From contig CAZCWN010000001.1 in NCBI GenBank assembly GCA_964502375.1, positions 16,278 to 80,277 on the forward strand: DNA of 64,000 bases, read 5' to 3'. Both the position numbers and the translations under genes were made by a program. The notes under the pieces were generated by a model. It was not told the DNA's origin, did no database searches, and saw only the letters and a list, made by a program, of their open reading frames with translations. Below are positions 1,230 through 38,705 of the stretch, piece by piece. Within the stretch, counting starts at the first letter, position 1; each line of letters starts with the position of its first letter. Source of the stretch: an uncultured Rhizobium sp. (GTDB taxonomy: Bacteria > Pseudomonadota > Alphaproteobacteria > Rickettsiales > UBA1997).

Positions 1230-1838
1230 ATGAAAAACCAACCAACTATCTCGCAAGCAGAGCAAGTGCTAATTCACTTTTCTGCTACGGGTGATAAATC
1301 CACTGTTGTTAAATTATCTCAAACACCGGGAATTAATATTAATGCTAAAGACGAAAATGGCATGACGGCTTTAATGCATGCTATAGAAAATGATCAACCC
1401 TACATATATTCTTATCTCTTGGAAGATAGAAGAGTTGATATTAATGCCACAGATAACCAAGGACGAACAGCCTTAATACAAGCCATAACAAGGGGTAACA
1501 CAAGCGCAGTGATTTCTCTTCTGAAGCATGGTGCTAATTTTTCGCTAGATCAAATTGCTGATGTTAGAACTGTTAGCCAAATAAGTTTAATATACGCTAC
1601 TTTTTGGAGTTCTCCTGAAAATGCCGCTTCTCTCTTGCAGGCAAGAGGGGTTAATATCAATAGCTCTGAGGAGGGCGGAATTACGGCATTGATGTTTGCC
1701 GCTACAATAGAAGAAACTCAAGAAAAGAAAAATAGCTCAATCATTGAAGCTATTTTGCGAGCAGGCGCAGATACTAGTCTCACAATGTCTACCGAGGGGG
1801 TCACTAAGAATCTTCTGGAAGAAGGAATAAACCCCTAA
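1230..1838 (+). CDS. ankyrin-repeat protein (N-terminal ORF of a possibly split gene)
   Basis: Repeated ANK signatures (G.TALM.A......LL....VDINA.D..GRTALI.A...G....V..LLKHGAN). No SD is visible. A TATAAT sits at 1218-1223. Confidence 0.85.
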   Translation: MKNQPTISQAEQVLIHFSATGDKSTVVKLSQTPGININAKDENGMTALMHAIENDQPYIYSYLLEDRRVDINATDNQGRTALIQAITRGNTSAVISLLKHGANFSLDQIADVRTVSQISLIYATFWSSPENAASLLQARGVNINSSEEGGITALMFAATIEETQEKKNSSIIEAILRAGADTSLTMSTEGVTKNLLEEGINP

Positions 1839-1842
1839 AGTT

Positions 1843-3540
1843 GTGAATGAAAGTTATCCTAGTAATAGCCCTGGCATCTCAGCCTTAGGTCTCGCTCTCG
1901 AAGCAAAAAATATAGGAGCAATAGAAGCCCTAATACAAGCTGGCGCTAGACTTCCAGAACGAGGAGAGCCTGGCACTCGTAACCACATGACTTTAGCTTA
2001 TGCGGCTTTGACATACATTAATATTAACCACCTCCAGCCAAACGAAGCCGCCGTTGTAATGCAGCAAGTAGGAATAGATAATCTAGATAGCAGCTCTAGC
2101 CCTGCTAATAAAATCCCACTATTACTACAGGCTATTAGTGAAGATCTTACAAAGGTTGTTAAGGTTCTTTTACATGGGGGAGCTAACCCAGATATGATCA
2201 TGGTTGTAAGCGAGGAAGAGAGTGGTCCTATAGTGGCTAAAATAACACCACTAATGCGCGCTGTCAGTAAAGGAAATATAGAAGTTGTCCGCTCTCTACT
2301 GGAATATAGGGCAAAGATTGATAGCATAAATCCTGATGGAAATAAAACCGCACTAATTATGGCTCTAGAACAGGGTCATTTTGAAATTGCAGATCTACTT
2401 TTAGAACGTGGGGCAAGGATTACTCCGCAACACCCAACAGCTTTCGTGCTTGCTACCTTCAGAACCGCTTCAGACTTCGAAGCCGCCCTAGACCAAATAA
2501 TACTAGAAGGAGTTAGCATTAACGCCCTAACAGAAGAAGGTTATAGCTCACTTATGATTGCCACTAAAGCACGTCAGATTGAGCTTGGCCGAGCCCTCCT
2601 ACGAGCAGGGGCAGAAGTCAATTTAGAATCTCCAGACAACCATACCGCTTTACTAGGGGCTATTTATTCTGGTGACACGCAACTTATTTCTCTTCTTCTT
2701 GATCGCAGGGCTAATATTGAAAAGGTTACAAAGGAAGCCTTAGAGAAAGCAGTAAAAATAAACGACAAATTTTCTGAGGTTATGGATAGAGTGTTTTCTT
2801 ATGCCATAACCAGGCCAGATCCACAATTTTTTAATCAGCTGTGGCATATCAAAGCTTATAATTTTACTAGTGACGAGATGTTAATAGGGATATCAGCTAC
2901 GCTTAAGGAAAAAAAGAATGATGAAAAAACCAGAAAATTACTCGCCCAACATAGGATTGATTCCCATGAAAGCTGGGAGAAAATTTCTAAACTCAGAGAT
3001 CTAAAAAGCGCATTCGAAAAGCAACTTAAAAAACAAAACGATCCTAATGCCAAGCGTTTAGCAGTGATGACCACCATCGCTTTTGCCACTGATACAGAGG
3101 TAAGGAAAAGCGCTCTATGGATAAGAGACGCTAATTTAGAAACTAAACTGCCTCCAGTAGCAAGCAGCGTGGTTGCCGAGAAATTTATCACAGAAAGTCT
3201 GAGAGCATTTTTAAACGAAGCTCAAATACAGGCCTTAATAACTGTTTTAAGTGATATAATACGCGGCCGGCTTTGTAAGGGTGTAGCAGCGGAGGATAGA
3301 AAAACTGCAGAAGAGGCTTTAGAAGAAAAAGCCACCCTATCCGATGCCCCAGCTGAGGAAAATTTACCAATGGAATCTTCTATGATCACAGAGGAAGAGA
3401 ACAAAAAAGAGCCATCCTTAGCAGATTCCAAACCCAAGGTGCCTGCAACCATAGTCACTCCAGCAGAAGTGAGGCCGCTGGATGAAAGCAGAGATGAGGT
3501 AAGCTATATTTCGCCAGGCAGGGGGTGTTACATCCAATAA
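1843..3540 (+). CDS. ankyrin-repeat protein with a non-ANK helical/acidic C-terminal region
   Basis: GTG start. At least 6 ANK-like units are present (e.g. TPLMRAVSKGNIEVVRSLLEYRAKID, GNKTALIMALEQGHFEIADLLLERGARI, HTALLGAIYSGDTQLISLLLDRRANIE). The last ~270 aa are non-repeat and Glu/Lys-rich. Confidence 0.85.
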   Translation: MNESYPSNSPGISALGLALEAKNIGAIEALIQAGARLPERGEPGTRNHMTLAYAALTYININHLQPNEAAVVMQQVGIDNLDSSSSPANKIPLLLQAISEDLTKVVKVLLHGGANPDMIMVVSEEESGPIVAKITPLMRAVSKGNIEVVRSLLEYRAKIDSINPDGNKTALIMALEQGHFEIADLLLERGARITPQHPTAFVLATFRTASDFEAALDQIILEGVSINALTEEGYSSLMIATKARQIELGRALLRAGAEVNLESPDNHTALLGAIYSGDTQLISLLLDRRANIEKVTKEALEKAVKINDKFSEVMDRVFSYAITRPDPQFFNQLWHIKAYNFTSDEMLIGISATLKEKKNDEKTRKLLAQHRIDSHESWEKISKLRDLKSAFEKQLKKQNDPNAKRLAVMTTIAFATDTEVRKSALWIRDANLETKLPPVASSVVAEKFITESLRAFLNEAQIQALITVLSDIIRGRLCKGVAAEDRKTAEEALEEKATLSDAPAEENLPMESSMITEEENKKEPSLADSKPKVPATIVTPAEVRPLDESRDEVSYISPGRGCYIQ

Positions 3541-16792: not shown

Positions 16793-18394
16793 TTATTTGG
16801 TCTCCAACCTTGGAAATACAGCCTTTGGTTCATTTATTTTATGCCCTGCAAGCAACGAGTTATTTAGAAAAGAGAAATTTCTTTGTGAACTTTCGATGTT
16901 TAATAAATCGAGAATTTTTGCGGCACTTTCGGGCACAAAAGGTAATAATAAAATAGCGATTAAACGGATTGACTCAGCCGCTTCCGACAGGGCTTCGTTC
17001 ATTTCGGAAATTTTATTTTCTTTTTTCAAATTCCACGGCGCGGCATCATTAAAATTGCGATTAACTATTGTGGCAAACTCAACAATTGCAGCAATTGCTT
17101 TATCAAAAGCAAAATTTTTCATGGCCGTAAAAACCTGTTCTGCATAAGGCTCAAGCAGGGTTTTGGCATGTTTAGGAGCGGCCAAAATTTTTCCGTCACA
17201 ATTTTTAAAAATCATCGTGAGTGAGCGCTGTACTAGATTGCCAATATTATTGGCCAGTTCTGCGTTAATGCGGGTGATAAAAGCAGTGCGCGAATAATCA
17301 CCATCATTGCCAAAGGGAACTTCACGCAACAAAAAATATTTAAAATAATCCACAGCCGTCTCACTGCCACAGCCTAGGCTTTCTAACCATTCTAATTCTT
17401 TTAGCGTATCAATTACATTTCCCACTGATTTAGAAATTTTTTGCCCACAATTTGTCCACCAACCATGAGCATAAATGCTGTGCGGAATGTTTAAATTCGC
17501 GGCCATCAAGAAAGCAGGCCAATAAACAGCATGAAACCGCACAATATCTTTGCCAACCATATGAACCGGCGAATCAACTGTGTTGTACCAAAATTTTTGA
17601 TAAAGTTCGGCGTTTTCGTTAGGAAAACCAAGGGCAGAAATGTAATTGGTTAAGGCATCCAACCAAACATACATAACATGTTTTTGCTCAGGATTATCAG
17701 CGCTTGATGGCACTTTTACGCCCCAAGAAAATGAAGTGCGCGAAATAGATAAATCTTTCAACCCGCTTTTAACAAAAGACACCACTTCATTAAAGCGCGA
17801 TTGAGGGCGAATAAAGTCTGGCGCGGCTTCATAAAGGGTTAATAATTTTTCTTGGAAAGCAGAAAGCTTAAAAAAATAGCTCTCTTCTTTATGCCAACTA
17901 ACTTCGGCACCAGTGGGAGCCTTGCCATCTATTAATTCATCTTCTGCATAAAAAGCTTCATCGCGCACAGCATACCAACCCTCATAAGTGCCTTTGTAAA
18001 TCCAACCATTTTTCTCAAGAATTTCCCAAAATTTTTGCGCGCATTTTTTGTGACGATTTTCGGTGGTGCGGATAAAATCATTATTAGAAAGCTTTAGAAT
18101 TTGTGCTAACTCACGAAATTTTAGTGATACTTCATCACAAAATTCTTGTGGATTCTTGCCGCGCGCCAAAGCCGATTTTTCTACTTTCTGACCATGCTCA
18201 TCAGTGCCGGTTAAAAAATAAACATTATAACCATCAAGCCTTTTGAAACGCGCCACCACATCGCATGCAATAGAGGTGTAAGCGTGGCCGATATGCGGCA
18301 CATCATTAACGTAATAAATTGGCGACGTGATATAAAAATTTTTATTCTCTGATTGCTCTAAAAAAACATCATGATTTTCAGATTTCTGCACCAT
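16793..18394 (-). CDS. metG: methionyl-tRNA synthetase
   Basis: 533 aa. Class I signatures HIGH (PHIGHAYT) and KMSKS (KISKSVGN) with MetRS-typical context. Confidence 0.95.
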   Translation of the reverse strand: MVQKSENHDVFLEQSENKNFYITSPIYYVNDVPHIGHAYTSIACDVVARFKRLDGYNVYFLTGTDEHGQKVEKSALARGKNPQEFCDEVSLKFRELAQILKLSNNDFIRTTENRHKKCAQKFWEILEKNGWIYKGTYEGWYAVRDEAFYAEDELIDGKAPTGAEVSWHKEESYFFKLSAFQEKLLTLYEAAPDFIRPQSRFNEVVSFVKSGLKDLSISRTSFSWGVKVPSSADNPEQKHVMYVWLDALTNYISALGFPNENAELYQKFWYNTVDSPVHMVGKDIVRFHAVYWPAFLMAANLNIPHSIYAHGWWTNCGQKISKSVGNVIDTLKELEWLESLGCGSETAVDYFKYFLLREVPFGNDGDYSRTAFITRINAELANNIGNLVQRSLTMIFKNCDGKILAAPKHAKTLLEPYAEQVFTAMKNFAFDKAIAAIVEFATIVNRNFNDAAPWNLKKENKISEMNEALSEAAESIRLIAILLLPFVPESAAKILDLLNIESSQRNFSFLNNSLLAGHKINEPKAVFPRLETK

Positions 18395-19576: not shown

Positions 19577-19828
19577 ATTTATATAGATTTATTAGTGATC
19601 AATTAAGCAAGAAAGCCGTCTAATATTTGGCGAAGTGGAAAATTATTATTAACAGGTTCCACCCTCTAATAGGGGCGGGGCTTAGGAGCTTAACTTTAAA
19701 AAAAATATTTTTTAAGGGCGCTAGATATTCTGTAGAATCACTAAAAACAGCAGTATCTCTGCGAAAAATAGATAAAGATATAGCCTATTTTAGGCGCTAA
19801 TCTTTATTAATTTATAAAGAAGTTCAAA

Positions 19829-19880: not shown

Positions 19881-20696
19881 TTAGCAAGAAATTCCAACCA
19901 ACAAATCGCCAACATCCAGCTTATTTTCAAAAGAACATTTTGCCCCACTTCTAACGCTTTCAAGGCCCGAAGCACAAATTAGAGAATCAGCAAGAACCTG
20001 CTCTTTTATGTAATTTTCAAAATTTTTTGCTACTTCCAAAATTCGCGGATTGGCAGAAAAAAGATGTAGTTCAATACGATCGGAAATATTGAGATTAGCA
20101 TCTTTGCGGTTTTGCTGAACAGCACGGATTATATCGCGTGCGATGCCTTCATCTTCCAACTCTTTACTAACTTCGATATCAAGAGAAACCAAGCAATCAT
20201 TGGTTGGAAGAGCAGCAATAGCAAATTTTTTTTCATCCTGATTTTTGGTGGCAAGCTTCAACTCAAACTCATCATCAATTAATTTTATACCTGCTATTTC
20301 AATTTCTTTTTCAGAAATTTTTTGCCATTTCCCCTCTTTGGCTGCAGCTGTAATTTCTTTAATTTTAGGGCCATATTTTGCACCAATTTTCTTAAAATTT
20401 ATCTGCAATTTTAATTCTGCCAAATCAGAAATTTCTTCTTTAATTTCCACTGATTTTACATTCACTTCATCAGCAATAATTTCTTTAAATGGCAAAATTT
20501 TGTGAGCGTTTTTTCCTATAACGGTAAGCAATTTAAGCGGCAATCTGACGCGTAAATTTTTGTTATCACGGATAGATAAAGCCACGCTACACACGGCGCG
20601 AACCAAGTCCATATCAGAAACCAATTCTTTTTCCTCACGCAAAAAAGAAAGGTTGGGAAAATCTTGTAAATGAACGGAAATTTTACGATCAATCAT
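19881..20696 (-). CDS. isoleucyl-tRNA synthetase (type 2) C-terminal region only: truncated remnant or stand-alone domain
   Basis: The 271-aa intact ORF aligns by eye with the last ~270 aa of type-2 IleRS (SVHL.DFP, VR.PL, ..EVNVK.VE, IN.KK.G.KYG.K...I, V.LD.....EL..EGIARD..R..Q..RK.A.L...DRI.L). There is no catalytic HIGH/KMSKS domain. purM ends 2 nt upstream. Confidence 0.8.
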   Translation of the reverse strand: MIDRKISVHLQDFPNLSFLREEKELVSDMDLVRAVCSVALSIRDNKNLRVRLPLKLLTVIGKNAHKILPFKEIIADEVNVKSVEIKEEISDLAELKLQINFKKIGAKYGPKIKEITAAAKEGKWQKISEKEIEIAGIKLIDDEFELKLATKNQDEKKFAIAALPTNDCLVSLDIEVSKELEDEGIARDIIRAVQQNRKDANLNISDRIELHLFSANPRILEVAKNFENYIKEQVLADSLICASGLESVRSGAKCSFENKLDVGDLLVGISC

Positions 20697-20698
20697 GT

Positions 20699-21691
20699 TT
20701 ATGCTAATTGTCCAATTATAAAGGCTTCTTCATTTTGAGCTTTTAGAATTTGCAGAATTTCATCTTCACAGCCCTTTTCAACTACTAGAACCATGCCCAC
20801 TCCGCAGTTAAATGTGCGATGCATTTCTTCATCGCTAACATTTCCTAATTTTTGTAAATAGTTGAAGATTTCAGGGCGTAACCAAGAATTATAATCTATT
20901 TTCGGCGTTACATTTTTTGATAGAACGCGTGGTAAATTTTCAGTTAGACCGCCTCCTGTAATATGCGCCAAAGCCTTGATTTTATTAGTTTCAATTGCTT
21001 TTAGACAGGATTTTACATAAATTTTGGTTGGCGCTAATAACGCTTCACCAGCAGTTTTTTCGCCAAAAACTTTATCAGAAAATTTTACAGAATTTTTTTG
21101 CAAAATAAAGCGTGCCAAAGAATAGCCATTAGAATGCACGCCACTTGAAGCTAAGCCAATTAACACATCGCCTGCTTTAGTTTCGCGCGGTAAAATTTTA
21201 TCTCTCTCAACTGCGCCAACGGCGAATCCGGCTAAGTCGTAGTCTCCTGCTGCATACATTCCTGGCATTTCCGCAGTTTCGCCACCAATCAAGGCGCATC
21301 CCGCCTGTTTGCAACCTTCGGCAATTCCTTTAATTACTTGGCTTGCTACTTCCACATCTAATTTCGAACAGGCAAAATAATCTAAGAAAAAAAGTGGCTC
21401 GGCACCTTGAACCACAAGGTCATTCACTGACATCGCGACCAAATCAATTCCGATTGTATCATGTTTGCCAACTTCAATTGCTACCTTTAATTTTGTGCCC
21501 ACGCCATCAGTTGAAGAAACCAAAACCGGGTCTTTAAAATTACATTTTTTTAAATCAAATAAAGCACCGAAGCCTCCCAAATCAGAGTCAGCTCCCAAAC
21601 GTTTGGTTGATTTAGCAAAAGGTTTTATACGGTTAACAAGGTCATTTCCGGCATCAATATCCACGCCGGATTGCTTGTAATTAAGAGACAT
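20699..21691 (-). CDS. purM: phosphoribosylformylglycinamidine cyclo-ligase (AIR synthetase)
   Basis: 330 aa with YK.SGVDIDAGN, GGFG.LF, DGVGTK, GGETAEMPG and HITGGG. Confidence 0.97.
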   Translation of the reverse strand: MSLNYKQSGVDIDAGNDLVNRIKPFAKSTKRLGADSDLGGFGALFDLKKCNFKDPVLVSSTDGVGTKLKVAIEVGKHDTIGIDLVAMSVNDLVVQGAEPLFFLDYFACSKLDVEVASQVIKGIAEGCKQAGCALIGGETAEMPGMYAAGDYDLAGFAVGAVERDKILPRETKAGDVLIGLASSGVHSNGYSLARFILQKNSVKFSDKVFGEKTAGEALLAPTKIYVKSCLKAIETNKIKALAHITGGGLTENLPRVLSKNVTPKIDYNSWLRPEIFNYLQKLGNVSDEEMHRTFNCGVGMVLVVEKGCEDEILQILKAQNEEAFIIGQLA

Positions 21692-21772
21692 TTTTCTTGC
21701 GAATTAAAAGTTGATGGGAATCTTGCCTGACATGGCTTCATGAGACTTTTCAATATTTCAGCAAAATCAGAT

Positions 21773-22837
21773 ATGTCGAGATTTTTTTCGTTTTTTTTAC
21801 TTATTTTTCTTGTATGGTCTGAGGGTAACAAAGCTGCAGCAGCCAATATTTATCTGGTTGAGAATGTTACTTCAAGTGTAAACTCAAAATCACCAGCTAT
21901 GGCTCGCAGCCTTGCCGTTGCAGGCGCCAGAAGGGATGCTTTTTTAATTTTACTTACCCGCCTGGAATTAAACCCTGCCCTAGCCGATACTGTGAATGAC
22001 GAAGAAATTTCTGACATGGTGCATTCCGAACAAATTGATAATGAAAAAATTGCCGGCAACAGCTATTCCGCCACTTTTAATATCTTTTTTGCCAAAGATT
22101 TTGTTGATCATATTTTATCCAAAAAGAGCCTAAAAAAATTGGCGGAGGATGAACAAAAAATCGAGGAAACTTACCTGCTCATCCCGGTTAAAATGCTGCA
22201 TCGCAAAGCCATTTTATGGGAAGAAGATAATGATTGGAAAAGGGCAATTGAGAAAAATCTGAAGAAGGCAAAAGGCAAATTTGTTGTTCCCACTGCTGAT
22301 ATCAATAATATTGGTTTTCTGAATCGCGAAAGCGTAATGAATGCAGACTATAGTGCTCTAGAGCCACTATTATCCAAATATAAATCCAGCGCTGCCTATA
22401 TTTTGTTTTTTTCTTACGATGAAGTCGAAAATAAAGTCACCGTTAACATTGTTCACATCCGCAAACTGCAAAAAAAACAAACCAAGCTCAGCTTTATTAA
22501 CGCCGATCGTTTAAGATATGAGACTCTATTAGATAAAATTTCTGCCAAAACGCTTGATTATATTGCCTCTAACCAAATTTTGGAAAGTAAAACAATAAAT
22601 ACAAATTTGGTTCAGATTAAAATTCCTATAACCAGTTTGGGCAATTGGTTGATGATTAAGAATAAAATCGAGAGCAGCAATTTAGTCAGCCAGCTAAATA
22701 TTGAGTCACTTTCTCGCGATTACGCTGTAGTTTCAGTAAGTTACACCGACCCTAACACCAACATTATGGATGCCTTCTTAAAAATTGGTCTGGTGCTCGA
22801 AAAAAAATCAGAAAACTCTTATATTTTAACAAACTAA
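21773..22837 (+). CDS. conserved secreted protein of unknown function (possibly DUF2066-like)
   Basis: I chose the ATG at 21773 because it gives a clean signal peptide (MSRFFSFFLLIFLVWSEGNKAAAA). I recognise no catalytic motif. A position divergent from purM and upstream of an AI-2E transporter recurs in proteobacteria, to my recollection. Confidence 0.5.
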   Translation: MSRFFSFFLLIFLVWSEGNKAAAANIYLVENVTSSVNSKSPAMARSLAVAGARRDAFLILLTRLELNPALADTVNDEEISDMVHSEQIDNEKIAGNSYSATFNIFFAKDFVDHILSKKSLKKLAEDEQKIEETYLLIPVKMLHRKAILWEEDNDWKRAIEKNLKKAKGKFVVPTADINNIGFLNRESVMNADYSALEPLLSKYKSSAAYILFFSYDEVENKVTVNIVHIRKLQKKQTKLSFINADRLRYETLLDKISAKTLDYIASNQILESKTINTNLVQIKIPITSLGNWLMIKNKIESSNLVSQLNIESLSRDYAVVSVSYTDPNTNIMDAFLKIGLVLEKKSENSYILTN

Positions 22838-38629: not shown

Positions 38630-38705
38630 GGGATTGTAGCTCAGCGGTTAGAGCAGGACGCTCATAACGTCTTGGTCGCAGGTTCGATCCCTGCCGATCC
38701 CACCA
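38630..38705 (+). tRNA. tRNA with anticodon CAT (elongator Met or lysidine-type Ile2; not initiator)
   Basis: Hand-folded cloverleaf: acceptor GGGATTG/CGATCCC, anticodon stem GGACG/CGTCT, loop CTCATAA, T-loop TTCGATC, 3' ACCA. Positions 1 and 72 are paired, and the anticodon stem lacks a GGG/CCC run, which argues against tRNA-fMet. Confidence 0.9.

What the first reader, a model, noticed from the sequence alone, without database searches (positions are those of the whole stretch)
19881..20696. Intact ORF encoding only the C-terminal ~270 aa of a type-2 isoleucyl-tRNA synthetase, fused behind purM
The ORF matches the terminal region of eukaryote-like (type 2) IleRS, running from the SVHL.DFP segment through the C-terminal junction domain. 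It lacks the whole Rossmann, editing and anticodon-binding body (about 800 aa). purM ends 2 nt upstream, and the upstream in-frame sequence hits a stop after 11 codons, so the truncation is sharp. The ORF has no internal stops or frameshifts over 813 nt in an AT-rich genome. That suggests either a very recent rearrangement or retention under selection, as a trans-acting domain or as one half of a split IleRS. It also occupies the slot where purN usually follows purM, so purN is missing here.
Basis: partly seen in the sequence, partly recalled or inferred. Interest (0 to 1): 0.6.

Follow-up and report, generated by a model that had tools for sequence, protein, structure and literature searches.

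The report
Tail subunit of split isoleucyl-tRNA synthetase
This 271-residue gene after purM is probably the separately encoded tRNA-anticodon-binding tail of an isoleucyl-tRNA synthetase that a freshwater Rickettsiales-like lineage makes from two genes, which no paper in the searched library describes for this enzyme.

Summary
ORF 19881-20696 (minus strand, 271 aa) equals residues ~764-1032 of a type-2 IleRS. It starts 2 nt after the purM stop, and its frame is closed 11 codons upstream.

It is not a recent truncation or an assembly artefact:
- More than 120 protein clusters at 68-92% identity, and 77 species-level genomes (all MAGs labelled Rickettsiales or Alphaproteobacteria), carry the same stand-alone ~265-275-aa gene.
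- purM lies immediately upstream in 53 of those 77 genomes.
- dN/dS is about 0.085, against 0.073 for purM.
- The four residues that form the pocket for anticodon base G34 in solved IleRS2 are kept.

The missing body exists as a separate gene. Body-only IleRS2 ORFs of 823-858 aa end exactly where this ORF begins ("…YVWKSLQA*" then "…SVHLQDFP"). They keep the residues that read A35/U36. One lies in the same MAG (JAGKWR01) as a purM-linked fragment 77% identical to this one.

Best reading: this ORF is the beta (tail) subunit of a naturally split IleRS2. Two gaps remain. The body gene of this window's own genome was not seen, and a second, complete ileS cannot be excluded. A distant alphaproteobacterium (L086) has both a complete IleRS2 and a free copy of the tail.

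The parts
19881..20696 (-). ileS-beta: complete 271-aa ORF (stop codon 19881-19883) encoding the C-terminal tRNA-binding module of a type-2 IleRS
   Evidence: It is a stand-alone ORF in 77 related genomes. dN/dS is 0.085.
20541..20696 (-). Residues 1-52: linker, the SVHLQDFP motif (20655-20678) and the last long helix of the helical anticodon-binding domain (ARD1). Proposed docking element onto the body subunit. Boundaries are approximate.
   Evidence: This segment matches Pfam Anticodon_1 profile positions 93-146. The AF2 model has helix 23-45, and residues 1-20 have low pLDDT (56-74) when modelled alone. S7, H9, L10, P14, C36, R43 and R51 are invariant in 15 diverse stand-alone homologues. 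Docking onto the body is inferred.
20172..20540 (-). Residues ~53-175: ARD2 with its insertion (INS), the D-loop-contacting part. Boundaries are approximate.
   Evidence: Aligns to PmIleRS2 ~816-940. F101 corresponds to PmIleRS2 F865, an INS residue placed near tRNA U20/U21. N100 and F101 are nearly invariant. The AF2 model shows beta-rich elements at 54-173.
19884..20171 (-). Residues ~176-271: ARD3, the domain that reads the first anticodon base. Boundaries are approximate.
   Evidence: Alignment to PmIleRS2 941-1013. AF2 helix 178-199 followed by strands.
20091..20117 (-). Codons Q194...R197, K198...L202, equivalent to the PmIleRS2 G34 pocket residues Q961, R964, K965 and L969
   Evidence: The mapping comes from the HMMER alignment and section 7 of the preprint 10.64898/2026.02.03.703510, where R964A abolishes charging. 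Q194, R197 and K198 are invariant in diverse stand-alone homologues. Q194 and R197 are invariant across stand-alone and full-length proteins together, and K198 is conserved in at least 90% of them.
20697..20698 (-). 2-nt spacer between the purM stop codon and the ileS-beta start codon. Implies co-transcription and probably translational coupling.
   Evidence: In relatives the spacing is usually from a 1-nt or 4-nt overlap (ATGA) to about +30 nt. Promoter-like matches in the scanned region are no more frequent than in shuffled sequence.
20699..21691 (-). purM (AIR synthase, 330 aa), the upstream gene of the apparent two-gene operon
   Evidence: TIGR00878 at 457 bits. purM lies within 60 nt upstream of the fragment in 53 of 77 related genomes.
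19783..19795 (.). Short palindromic hairpin between the convergent ileS-beta and prfA genes. Possibly a bidirectional terminator; weak evidence.
   Evidence: Pattern scan only: 5-bp stem with 3 G-C pairs.

Best explanation
The ORF encodes the beta (tail) subunit of a naturally split type-2 isoleucyl-tRNA synthetase. In this lineage the enzyme is made from two genes. The alpha gene (~823-858 aa) encodes the catalytic Rossmann core, the CP1 editing domain and most of the helical anticodon-binding domain ARD1. In relatives it lies divergent from hom-glyS, elsewhere on the chromosome. The beta gene, this ORF, encodes the last ARD1 helix plus ARD2, INS and ARD3, and is transcribed with purM.

The proposed mechanism is inferred, not shown. 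The beta N-terminal segment (SVHL motif and helix 23-45) packs onto the alpha helical bundle and rebuilds the anticodon cleft. Alpha then reads A35/U36 through the equivalents of PmIleRS2 N647, F651 and R721. Beta reads G34 through Q194, R197, K198 and L202, and touches the D-loop through the INS region (F101). Alpha carries out activation, transfer and editing.

These points are shown:
- The stand-alone gene is conserved and under selection.
- The alpha and beta ends are exactly complementary.
- The tRNA-reading residues are retained on each half.
- Both halves occur in one MAG of the same clade.

These points are inferred:
- This window's own genome has the alpha gene and no complete ileS.
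- The two proteins associate and are jointly required.
For: 1. The gene is conserved.
- More than 120 clusters of 264-279-aa stand-alone proteins are 68-92% identical to this ORF.
- 77 GTDB species-representative loci carry it with a stop at most 24 codons upstream.
- Synteny uvrA-ispA-AI2E-DUF2066-purM-(insert)-fragment-prfA-metG is kept on a 954-kb contig.
- dN/dS has a median of 0.085 over 128 pairs, against 0.073 for purM.

2. tRNA-reading residues are kept. Q194, R197, K198 and L202 correspond to the PmIleRS2 G34 pocket, and F101 corresponds to F865.

3. A complementary partner gene exists.
- Body-only IleRS2 ORFs end at PmIleRS2 residue ~766, and the fragment begins at ~764-770.
- They keep the HIGH-type and KMSKS-type motifs and the N647, F651 and R721 equivalents.
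- The 90%-identity cluster of the L091 protein has 8 members from JGI, ENA, NCBI and Logan. Six are body-only proteins of 823-858 aa and two are short partial sequences (226 and 427 aa); the one partial looked up (P0459) ends at the same junction.
- Flanks are complete and contain no C-terminal module within 4-10 kb.

4. Both halves occur in one genome bin. P0460 (alpha, 858 aa) is on JAGKWR010000005.1. P0012 (beta, 270 aa, 77% identical to this ORF, 5 nt after purM) is on JAGKWR010000001.1 of the same MAG, GCA_021151765.1.

5. Composition agrees.
- Tetranucleotide correlation of alpha loci with beta loci of the near clade is 0.96-0.98. For L091 the mean r is 0.961, the within-clade range is 0.921-0.968, and the window scores 0.944.
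- Loci carrying full-length IleRS2 score 0.80-0.82.

6. The body is a plausible autonomous fold. The solved T. thermophilus IleRS chain 1ile_A is 821 aa, and the L091 alpha protein aligns to its residues 40-769.
Against: - The alpha gene of this window's own genome was not seen. The window is 64 kb and this exact protein is not in the contig index.
- The same-genome link rests on one MAG, so a binning error is possible though composition agrees.
- A complete ileS or an IleRS1 elsewhere in these genomes could not be excluded with the capped tools.
- L086, a GC-rich alphaproteobacterium, has a full-length IleRS2 and a free-standing copy of the tail 0.8 kb downstream. Stand-alone tails can therefore coexist with a complete enzyme.
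- In another group the body-only forms (P0295, P0337, P0391) are interleaved with a full-length relative (P0360, 80% identical). The trait is therefore labile.
- No biochemical evidence for association or activity exists.
Confidence: 0.8

Rival explanations
1. The ORF is a free-standing paralogue of the IleRS2 tail that coexists with a complete IleRS. It acts in trans as a tRNA-Ile binding, chaperoning or regulatory factor, in the manner of the free tRNA-binding proteins related to synthetase appended domains.
For: L086 carries a contiguous ileS with its own C-terminal module, and 0.8 kb downstream a 260-aa stand-alone copy 57% identical to it. Stand-alone representatives are scattered among full-length lineages in the C-terminal tree. 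The tRNA-contact residues are conserved, which this model also predicts.
Against: In the window's clade, the ileS genes recovered are body-only and end exactly at the fragment's start. One is in the same MAG as a fragment. According to the preprint, an IleRS2 without a working ARD3 pocket (R964A) is essentially inactive, so a body-only enzyme needs this module from somewhere. The N-terminal 20 residues of the fragment are poorly ordered alone.
Confidence: 0.13
2. The ORF has been recruited to a purine-related or other new function, because it is tied to purM in the slot where purN often sits.
For: purM is within 60 nt upstream in 53 of 77 genomes, often with overlapping stop and start codons. 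No purN is present in the window.
Against: There is no similarity to any purine enzyme, and all detectable homology and fold is to the IleRS2 C-terminus. The anticodon-pocket residues are invariant. Ten of 77 genomes have the gene with no purM in the locus, and four more have insertions of about 0.95-1.6 kb between the two genes. L001 also has a Bro-N gene inserted between them.
Confidence: 0.04
3. The ORF is a decaying remnant of a duplicated or displaced ileS, or an assembly chimera at the purM junction.
For: Only the raw appearance supports this: a sharp 5' truncation next to an unrelated gene.
Against: The ORF is intact in 77 species-level genomes and in hundreds of metagenome clusters from independent assemblies. 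dN/dS is 0.085, close to that of purM. Sequence has diverged to ~50% identity while the same start point is kept.
Confidence: 0.02

Closest known systems
C-terminal tRNA-binding module (end of ARD1, ARD2 with INS, ARD3) of bacterial type-2 IleRS, e.g. Priestia megaterium IleRS2 (PDB 8c8u/8c8v; preprint 10.64898/2026.02.03.703510)
   Same: The sequence aligns to residues 770-1013 (E 1e-22) and the fold matches (Foldseek E 1e-19). The G34-pocket residues Q961, R964, K965 and L969 and the INS residue F865 have conserved equivalents.
   Different: In PmIleRS2 the module is the covalent C-terminus of a 1032-aa chain. Here it is a separate 271-aa protein encoded after purM. The preprint discusses loss of INS and exchange of ARD3 but no separately encoded module: 'standalone', 'stand-alone', 'truncated' and 'free-standing' do not occur in its text.
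Aquifex aeolicus leucyl-tRNA synthetase, an alpha-beta heterodimer encoded by two genes (Xu et al. 2002, as cited in PMC2377443)
   Same: [quoted passage not shown] It is the nearest functional analogue of what is proposed here.
   Different: It has a different amino-acid specificity and comes from a different phylum. From my own recollection, not checked here, the LeuRS break lies within the catalytic region rather than at the end of ARD1. Heterodimer formation and activity have been shown for LeuRS and are untested here.
Other naturally split or trans-complemented synthetases: Nanoarchaeum equitans split AlaRS, crenarchaeal ThrRS-cat plus ThrRS-ed, and Trbp111-type free tRNA-binding domains related to the MetRS C-terminus (recalled from general knowledge, not checked here)
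   Same: A domain normally fused to a synthetase is encoded separately and works in trans.
   Different: None of these involves IleRS or the ARD2/ARD3 anticodon-reading module. The Trbp111-type proteins coexist with a functional parent enzyme, which resembles the L086 situation rather than that of the window's clade.
Thermus thermophilus IleRS crystal chain 1ile_A (821 residues)
   Same: It shows that an IleRS body without the distal C-terminal domains is a stable folded unit. The L091 alpha protein aligns to residues 40-769 of that chain.
   Different: From my recollection it is a laboratory truncation of a longer natural protein, not a natural gene arrangement. It also extends about 50 residues beyond the natural split point seen here.

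Membership tests
Type-2 IleRS C-terminal module (Pfam PF19302 DUF5915 plus the end of PF08264) | Significant match to PF19302 above the gathering score | tested here: met
   112 bits against a cut-off of 27, E 3e-32
Type-2 IleRS C-terminal module (Pfam PF19302 DUF5915 plus the end of PF08264) | Fold equivalent to ARD2, INS and ARD3 of solved IleRS2 structures | tested here: met
   AF2 model with pLDDT 87.5. Foldseek top hits are 8c9d, 8c8v, 8c8w and 8c8u (E ~1e-19) and yeast 8wnd (E 1e-14).
Type-2 IleRS C-terminal module (Pfam PF19302 DUF5915 plus the end of PF08264) | Conserved G34-recognition pocket (PmIleRS2 Q961, R964, K965, L969) | tested here: met
   The equivalents are Q194, R197, K198 and L202. 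Q194, R197 and K198 are invariant in 15 diverse stand-alone homologues; Q194 and R197 are invariant and K198 is at least 90% conserved in the 100-sequence mixed alignment.
Canonical single-chain isoleucyl-tRNA synthetase (ileS, TIGR00392 and the MupA/MupB models) | One polypeptide with a Rossmann catalytic core, CP1 editing domain and anticodon-binding domains | tested here: not met
   Only the last ~230 profile positions match, at 83 bits against a cut-off of 1900. The upstream frame is closed after 11 codons. No body is encoded in the window.
Naturally split (two-gene) aminoacyl-tRNA synthetase | Two ORFs that together cover the full-length homologue with neither gap nor overlap | tested here: met
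   Met in relatives, not in this genome. Alpha ORFs end at PmIleRS2 ~766 ('...YVWKSLQA*') and beta starts at ~764-770.
Naturally split (two-gene) aminoacyl-tRNA synthetase | Both halves encoded in the same genome | tested here: met
   MAG GCA_021151765.1 has alpha on JAGKWR010000005.1 and beta on JAGKWR010000001.1. This is a single bin, supported by tetranucleotide r of 0.976. It was not testable for the window's own genome.
Naturally split (two-gene) aminoacyl-tRNA synthetase | Both halves maintained by purifying selection | tested here: met
   Beta has dN/dS 0.085. Alpha is body-only in the six near-complete members (823-858 aa) of its 90% cluster, and between lineages 77% identical to each other (L090 and L091), with catalytic motifs intact.
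Naturally split (two-gene) aminoacyl-tRNA synthetase | No additional full-length copy in the genome | not testable with these tools
   Whole genomes could not be read. The top-120 lists of IleRS2 homologues share no contig length with fragment-bearing contigs, but those lists are saturated.
Naturally split (two-gene) aminoacyl-tRNA synthetase | Physical association of the subunits and joint requirement for aminoacylation | not testable with these tools
   This needs biochemistry or a complex model. Only window sequences and proteins from one tool could be submitted for structure prediction.
Free-standing tRNA-binding paralogue coexisting with a complete parent synthetase | A complete parent enzyme with its own copy of the domain in the same genome | tested here: inconclusive
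   True in L086. In the window's clade the parent genes found lack the domain, but an extra complete copy cannot be ruled out.
Pseudogene or gene remnant | Disrupted frame or relaxed selection | tested here: not met
   The ORF is intact in 77 genomes, with dN/dS 0.05-0.11.

The most novel reading that the evidence does not exclude
Across a whole family of freshwater Rickettsiales-like bacteria, IleRS is an obligate alpha-beta enzyme in which one anticodon is read jointly by two polypeptides: A35/U36 by alpha and G34 by beta. The arrangement arose by first duplicating the C-terminal module as a free gene (the L086 stage) and then repeatedly deleting the fused copy (the P0295, P0391 and L091 stages). 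Because beta is expressed from the purM operon, its dosage could tune Ile-tRNA charging independently of the catalytic subunit.
Probability: 0.25. Interest if true: 0.8.

Novelty: new variant of a known kind. Interest (0 to 1): 0.62.

Why it matters
Two-gene synthetases are rare natural experiments on how these modular enzymes were assembled. No paper in the searched library describes a split IleRS or mentions DUF5915. Public annotation names the tail 'hypothetical protein', 'DUF5915 domain-containing protein' or, in JGI, 'isoleucyl-tRNA synthetase'. In the one named case seen, the body-only gene is called 'ileS'.

If the split is real, it has four consequences:
- It gives DUF5915 stand-alone proteins a function.
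- It provides a natural system for testing what ARD2, INS and ARD3 contribute in trans. That question is under active study for IleRS2 turnover and anticodon reading (preprint 10.64898/2026.02.03.703510).
- It corrects pathway-completeness calls for these MAGs.
- It offers a plausible duplication-then-loss route to gene fission, with intermediates still extant.

Tried and rejected
- Looked for the IleRS body in the window and within 10 kb of the fragment in 87 related loci. None was found, except for the full-length genes in L085, L086 and L087.
- Tried to link fragment and ileS by equal 'longest contig' lengths in two homologue searches. There were no matches. The lists are saturated with IleRS2 proteins 62-70% identical to the query, so this is uninformative.
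- Tried linking through neighbouring NCBI protein accession numbers. No link was found.
- The genome scan patterns match only 5 of 182 full-length IleRS2 proteins. That scan therefore cannot show that full-length copies are absent.
Only L091 and the partial L159 were useful.
- P0377 (839 aa) looked like another split form but is 98.6% identical to the full-length P0351. I treat it as an artefact.
I got round this with the listing of cluster members.
- The first dN/dS script timed out and was rewritten.
- Promoter and terminator scans around the gene gave nothing above the shuffled expectation.
- A 52-aa ORF called downstream of the fragment in L001 and L002 is not conserved elsewhere.
- The alignment A1 of distant stand-alone proteins was too diverse for the genome scan.

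Full report
**Observation**

ORF 19881-20696 lies on the minus strand. It starts with ATG, encodes 271 aa and has no internal stop. purM occupies 20699-21691 on the same strand (TIGR00878, 457 bits) and ends with TAA 2 nt before the ATG. The in-frame sequence upstream reaches TGA after 11 codons.

The homology is to the tail of a type-2 IleRS only:
- Pfam finds DUF5915 (PF19302, E 3e-32) at residues 72-243, and the last third of Anticodon_1 at residues 2-56.
- The sequence aligns to residues 770-1013 of the 1032-aa P. megaterium IleRS2 (E 1e-22).
- An AlphaFold2 model (pLDDT 87.5) retrieves the same structures (Foldseek E ~1e-19) and then yeast IleRS.

No IleRS body is encoded in the 64-kb window.

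**Not recent and not an artefact**

- A homologue search returned more than 120 clusters of 264-279-aa proteins at 68-92% identity.
- A search of representatives clustered at 50% identity found 140 hits below 1e-30. Most are 250-290 aa and start at the same SVHL motif.
- A scan of one genome per GTDB species gave 80 loci. All are MAGs labelled Rickettsiales, Alphaproteobacteria or similar, and many come from lakes and groundwater. One record title names UBA1997, a freshwater Rickettsiales family described in bioRxiv 10.1101/2023.01.31.526412. Assigning the clade to that family is my inference.
- In 77 of the 80 loci the homologue is a stand-alone ORF whose frame closes at most 24 codons upstream.
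- purM ends within 60 nt upstream in 53 of the 77 loci and within 61-300 nt in 8. It is displaced by insertions in 4, absent from the locus in 10 and undeterminable in 2.
- The purM-fragment junction persists down to ~50% fragment identity (L082-L084), and in P0123 at 47% identity.
- On a 954-kb contig the wider synteny uvrA-ispA-AI2E-DUF2066-purM-...-fragment-prfA-metG matches the window.
- Nei-Gojobori dN/dS for the fragment is 0.05-0.11, with a median of 0.085 over 128 pairs. For purM in the same pairs the median is 0.073.

A pseudogene, a recent rearrangement and a chimeric assembly are therefore all excluded.

**What the protein retains**

The 2026 preprint on IleRS2 (10.64898/2026.02.03.703510) assigns recognition of anticodon base G34 to an ARD3 pocket formed by R964, Q961, K965 and L969. 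R964A abolishes charging. It assigns A35/U36 recognition to the ARD1 residues R721, N647, F651 and S713. It places the INS residues K862 and F865 near the D-loop.

Through the HMMER alignment, the G34 pocket maps to Q194, R197, K198 and L202, and F865 maps to F101. Q194, R197 and K198 are invariant among 15 stand-alone proteins that share as little as 31% identity with this ORF. In a 100-sequence alignment of stand-alone and full-length proteins, Q194 and R197 are invariant and K198 is conserved in at least 90% of sequences. The protein is therefore still built to read the tRNA-Ile anticodon loop.

**Where the rest of the enzyme is**

Two of the 80 loci (L085, L087) carry full-length 1059-aa and 1064-aa IleRS2 genes. 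I used the L085 body as a query. Nearly all of the top 120 hits were full-length Rickettsiales IleRS2, but a few were about 800 aa and lacked DUF5915.

These body-only proteins end '...IYQGLQATE*' or '...HVWKSLN*', exactly where full-length proteins continue '...SVHLQDFP'. In their contigs they are complete genes:
- P0295 and P0337 are followed by der.
- P0329 stops 55 nt before the end of its contig.
- P0377 is an artefact.

P0329 is a deep branch, and its nearest relatives are the L085 and L087 groups. The fragment clade occupies the same position in a tree of C-terminal modules.

It still returned L091, an 823-aa body-only gene 77% identical to P0329. That gene ends '...FVWKSLQA*' and is followed by more than 300 nt of non-coding DNA.

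The tetranucleotide composition of L091 correlates with fragment loci of the window's near clade at r = 0.96-0.985:

| Locus or group | Mean r to the near clade |
|---|---|
| L091 (body-only ileS) | 0.961 |
| Loci within the near clade | 0.921-0.968 |
| The window | 0.944 |
| L085, L087, L092 (full-length IleRS2) | 0.80-0.82 |
| L088, L089 (P0295-type body-only) | 0.65-0.71 |

L090 (P0329) correlates best with the lower-GC fragment loci.

The exact-sequence cluster of the L091 protein has 8 members from four sources. Six are 823-858-aa body-only proteins and two are short partial sequences of 226 and 427 aa. One member, P0460, lies on JAGKWR010000005.1 of MAG GCA_021151765.1. Its product ends '...YVWKSLQA*' and the next gene is on the opposite strand. 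The same MAG carries purM, then 5 nt, then a 270-aa fragment (P0012, 77% identical to the window's ORF) on JAGKWR010000001.1. The two loci have a tetranucleotide r of 0.976.

Further body-only genes with complete flanks are L172, L173 and L174. None of the eight alpha loci contains a C-terminal module. The arrangement glyS-hom divergent from alpha recurs in L090, L171 and L172, and hom is again the divergent upstream neighbour in L091.

The alpha protein aligns to PmIleRS2 residues 35-766. It keeps the N647, F651 and R721 equivalents, while S713 is replaced by N. Alpha and beta thus abut at PmIleRS2 residue ~767, and each keeps its share of the anticodon-reading residues.

**Mechanism (inferred)**

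Beta residues ~1-50 correspond to the end of Pfam Anticodon_1. Residues 1-20 have low confidence when modelled alone. The solved T. thermophilus IleRS chain is 821 aa, about 50 residues longer than the natural alpha.

I therefore propose that this segment docks onto the alpha helical bundle and restores the ARD1-ARD3 cleft. Alpha performs activation, transfer and editing. Anticodon recognition is shared between the two chains. The 2-nt spacing after purM, and the lack of promoter-like sites above chance, suggest co-transcription and translational coupling.

**Caveats and rival readings**

- The window's own alpha gene was not seen.
- The same-genome link rests on one MAG.
- An extra complete ileS cannot be excluded.
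- L086 (GC 58%) has a contiguous ileS with its own tail, then a 268-aa sulfotransferase-like ORF, then a 260-aa free tail 57% identical to the fused one. Free tails can therefore coexist with a complete enzyme.
- The P0295, P0337 and P0391 body-only forms are interleaved with the full-length P0360, which is 80% identical to P0295. The stand-alone protein P0128 is closest (63%) to the tail of P0360.

Together these points suggest a duplication-then-loss route to fission, possibly taken more than once. The NJ tree behind this idea is crude.

**Comparison with known systems and novelty**

The nearest functional analogue is the alpha-beta LeuRS of Aquifex aeolicus (PMC2377443). Other split or trans-acting synthetase modules are known to me only from memory. 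I found no paper on a split IleRS or on DUF5915. The IleRS C-terminal remodelling preprint does not mention separately encoded modules.

My verdict is a new variant of a known kind, the two-gene synthetase. Confidence in the split-enzyme reading is 0.8.

Noticed in passing
L086:1-3300 (JAHFPR010000008.1, Alphaproteobacteria bacterium nzgw531): A contiguous ileS with its own C-terminal module ends at 1712. It is followed by a 268-aa sulfotransferase-like ORF (1715-2521) and a 260-aa stand-alone copy of the tail (2518-3300, ATGA overlap). This looks like a possible intermediate on the way to gene fission.
   Followed up: partly
Proteins P0157, P0178, P0180: Full-length IleRS2 proteins of 1014-1319 aa carry a DUF559/REase_MTES_1575 endonuclease-like domain or a GNAT acetyltransferase domain inserted inside the tRNA-synt_1 catalytic region.
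   Followed up: no
L088, L089, L173 (P0295, P0337, P0463): A second group of body-only IleRS2 genes (797-803 aa) exists in other Rickettsiales-like genomes. It is interleaved with a full-length relative (P0360, 80% identical). The stand-alone protein P0128 is closest (63%) to the tail of P0360, which hints at an independent split.
   Followed up: partly
L001:9149-9994: In the relative on the 954-kb contig, a Bro-N domain gene (281 aa, typical of phages) is inserted between purM and the fragment. Similar insertions of about 0.95-1.6 kb occur in L030, L033 and L067.
   Followed up: no
window 16793-18394 (-): The MetRS here is a short 533-aa form that matches only positions 2-512 of a 648-position profile. 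It therefore lacks the appended C-terminal tRNA-binding domain found in longer MetRS proteins.
   Followed up: no
window 1230-3540 (+); also L171:654-1235 and L172:6326-8806: Ankyrin-repeat proteins are encoded in the window (202 aa and 565 aa) and next to the alpha-subunit genes of relatives. Such repeats are common in bacteria that associate with eukaryotes.
   Followed up: no
L091:8470-8640: A long, nearly perfect inverted repeat (arms about 45 nt, 'ggcactgttagctaattaattttagctcagatt...') lies directly downstream of the body-only ileS.
   Followed up: no
L171:10001-12577 compared with L091:5989-8460: The alpha subunit of MAG JAGKWR01 carries a ~35-aa low-complexity insertion ('INHPSSPNGDATLFSKEGKTENPPLQKEVATKSSEDLV') that its close relative L091 (same 90%-identity cluster) lacks.
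   Followed up: no
window 21740-22837 (+): A 365-aa ORF divergent from purM has no NCBIfam hit. Its counterpart in L001 has only a faint DUF2066 match. The position is conserved in relatives (L001, L003).
   Followed up: no
window 38630-38705 (+): A tRNA with anticodon CAT could be an initiator or elongator tRNA-Met, or the lysidine-modified tRNA-Ile2 that IleRS must also recognise.
   Followed up: no
Protein P0159: This 1003-aa IleRS-like protein has its DUF5915 module at residues 566-758, followed by about 245 further residues with no Pfam match.
   Followed up: no
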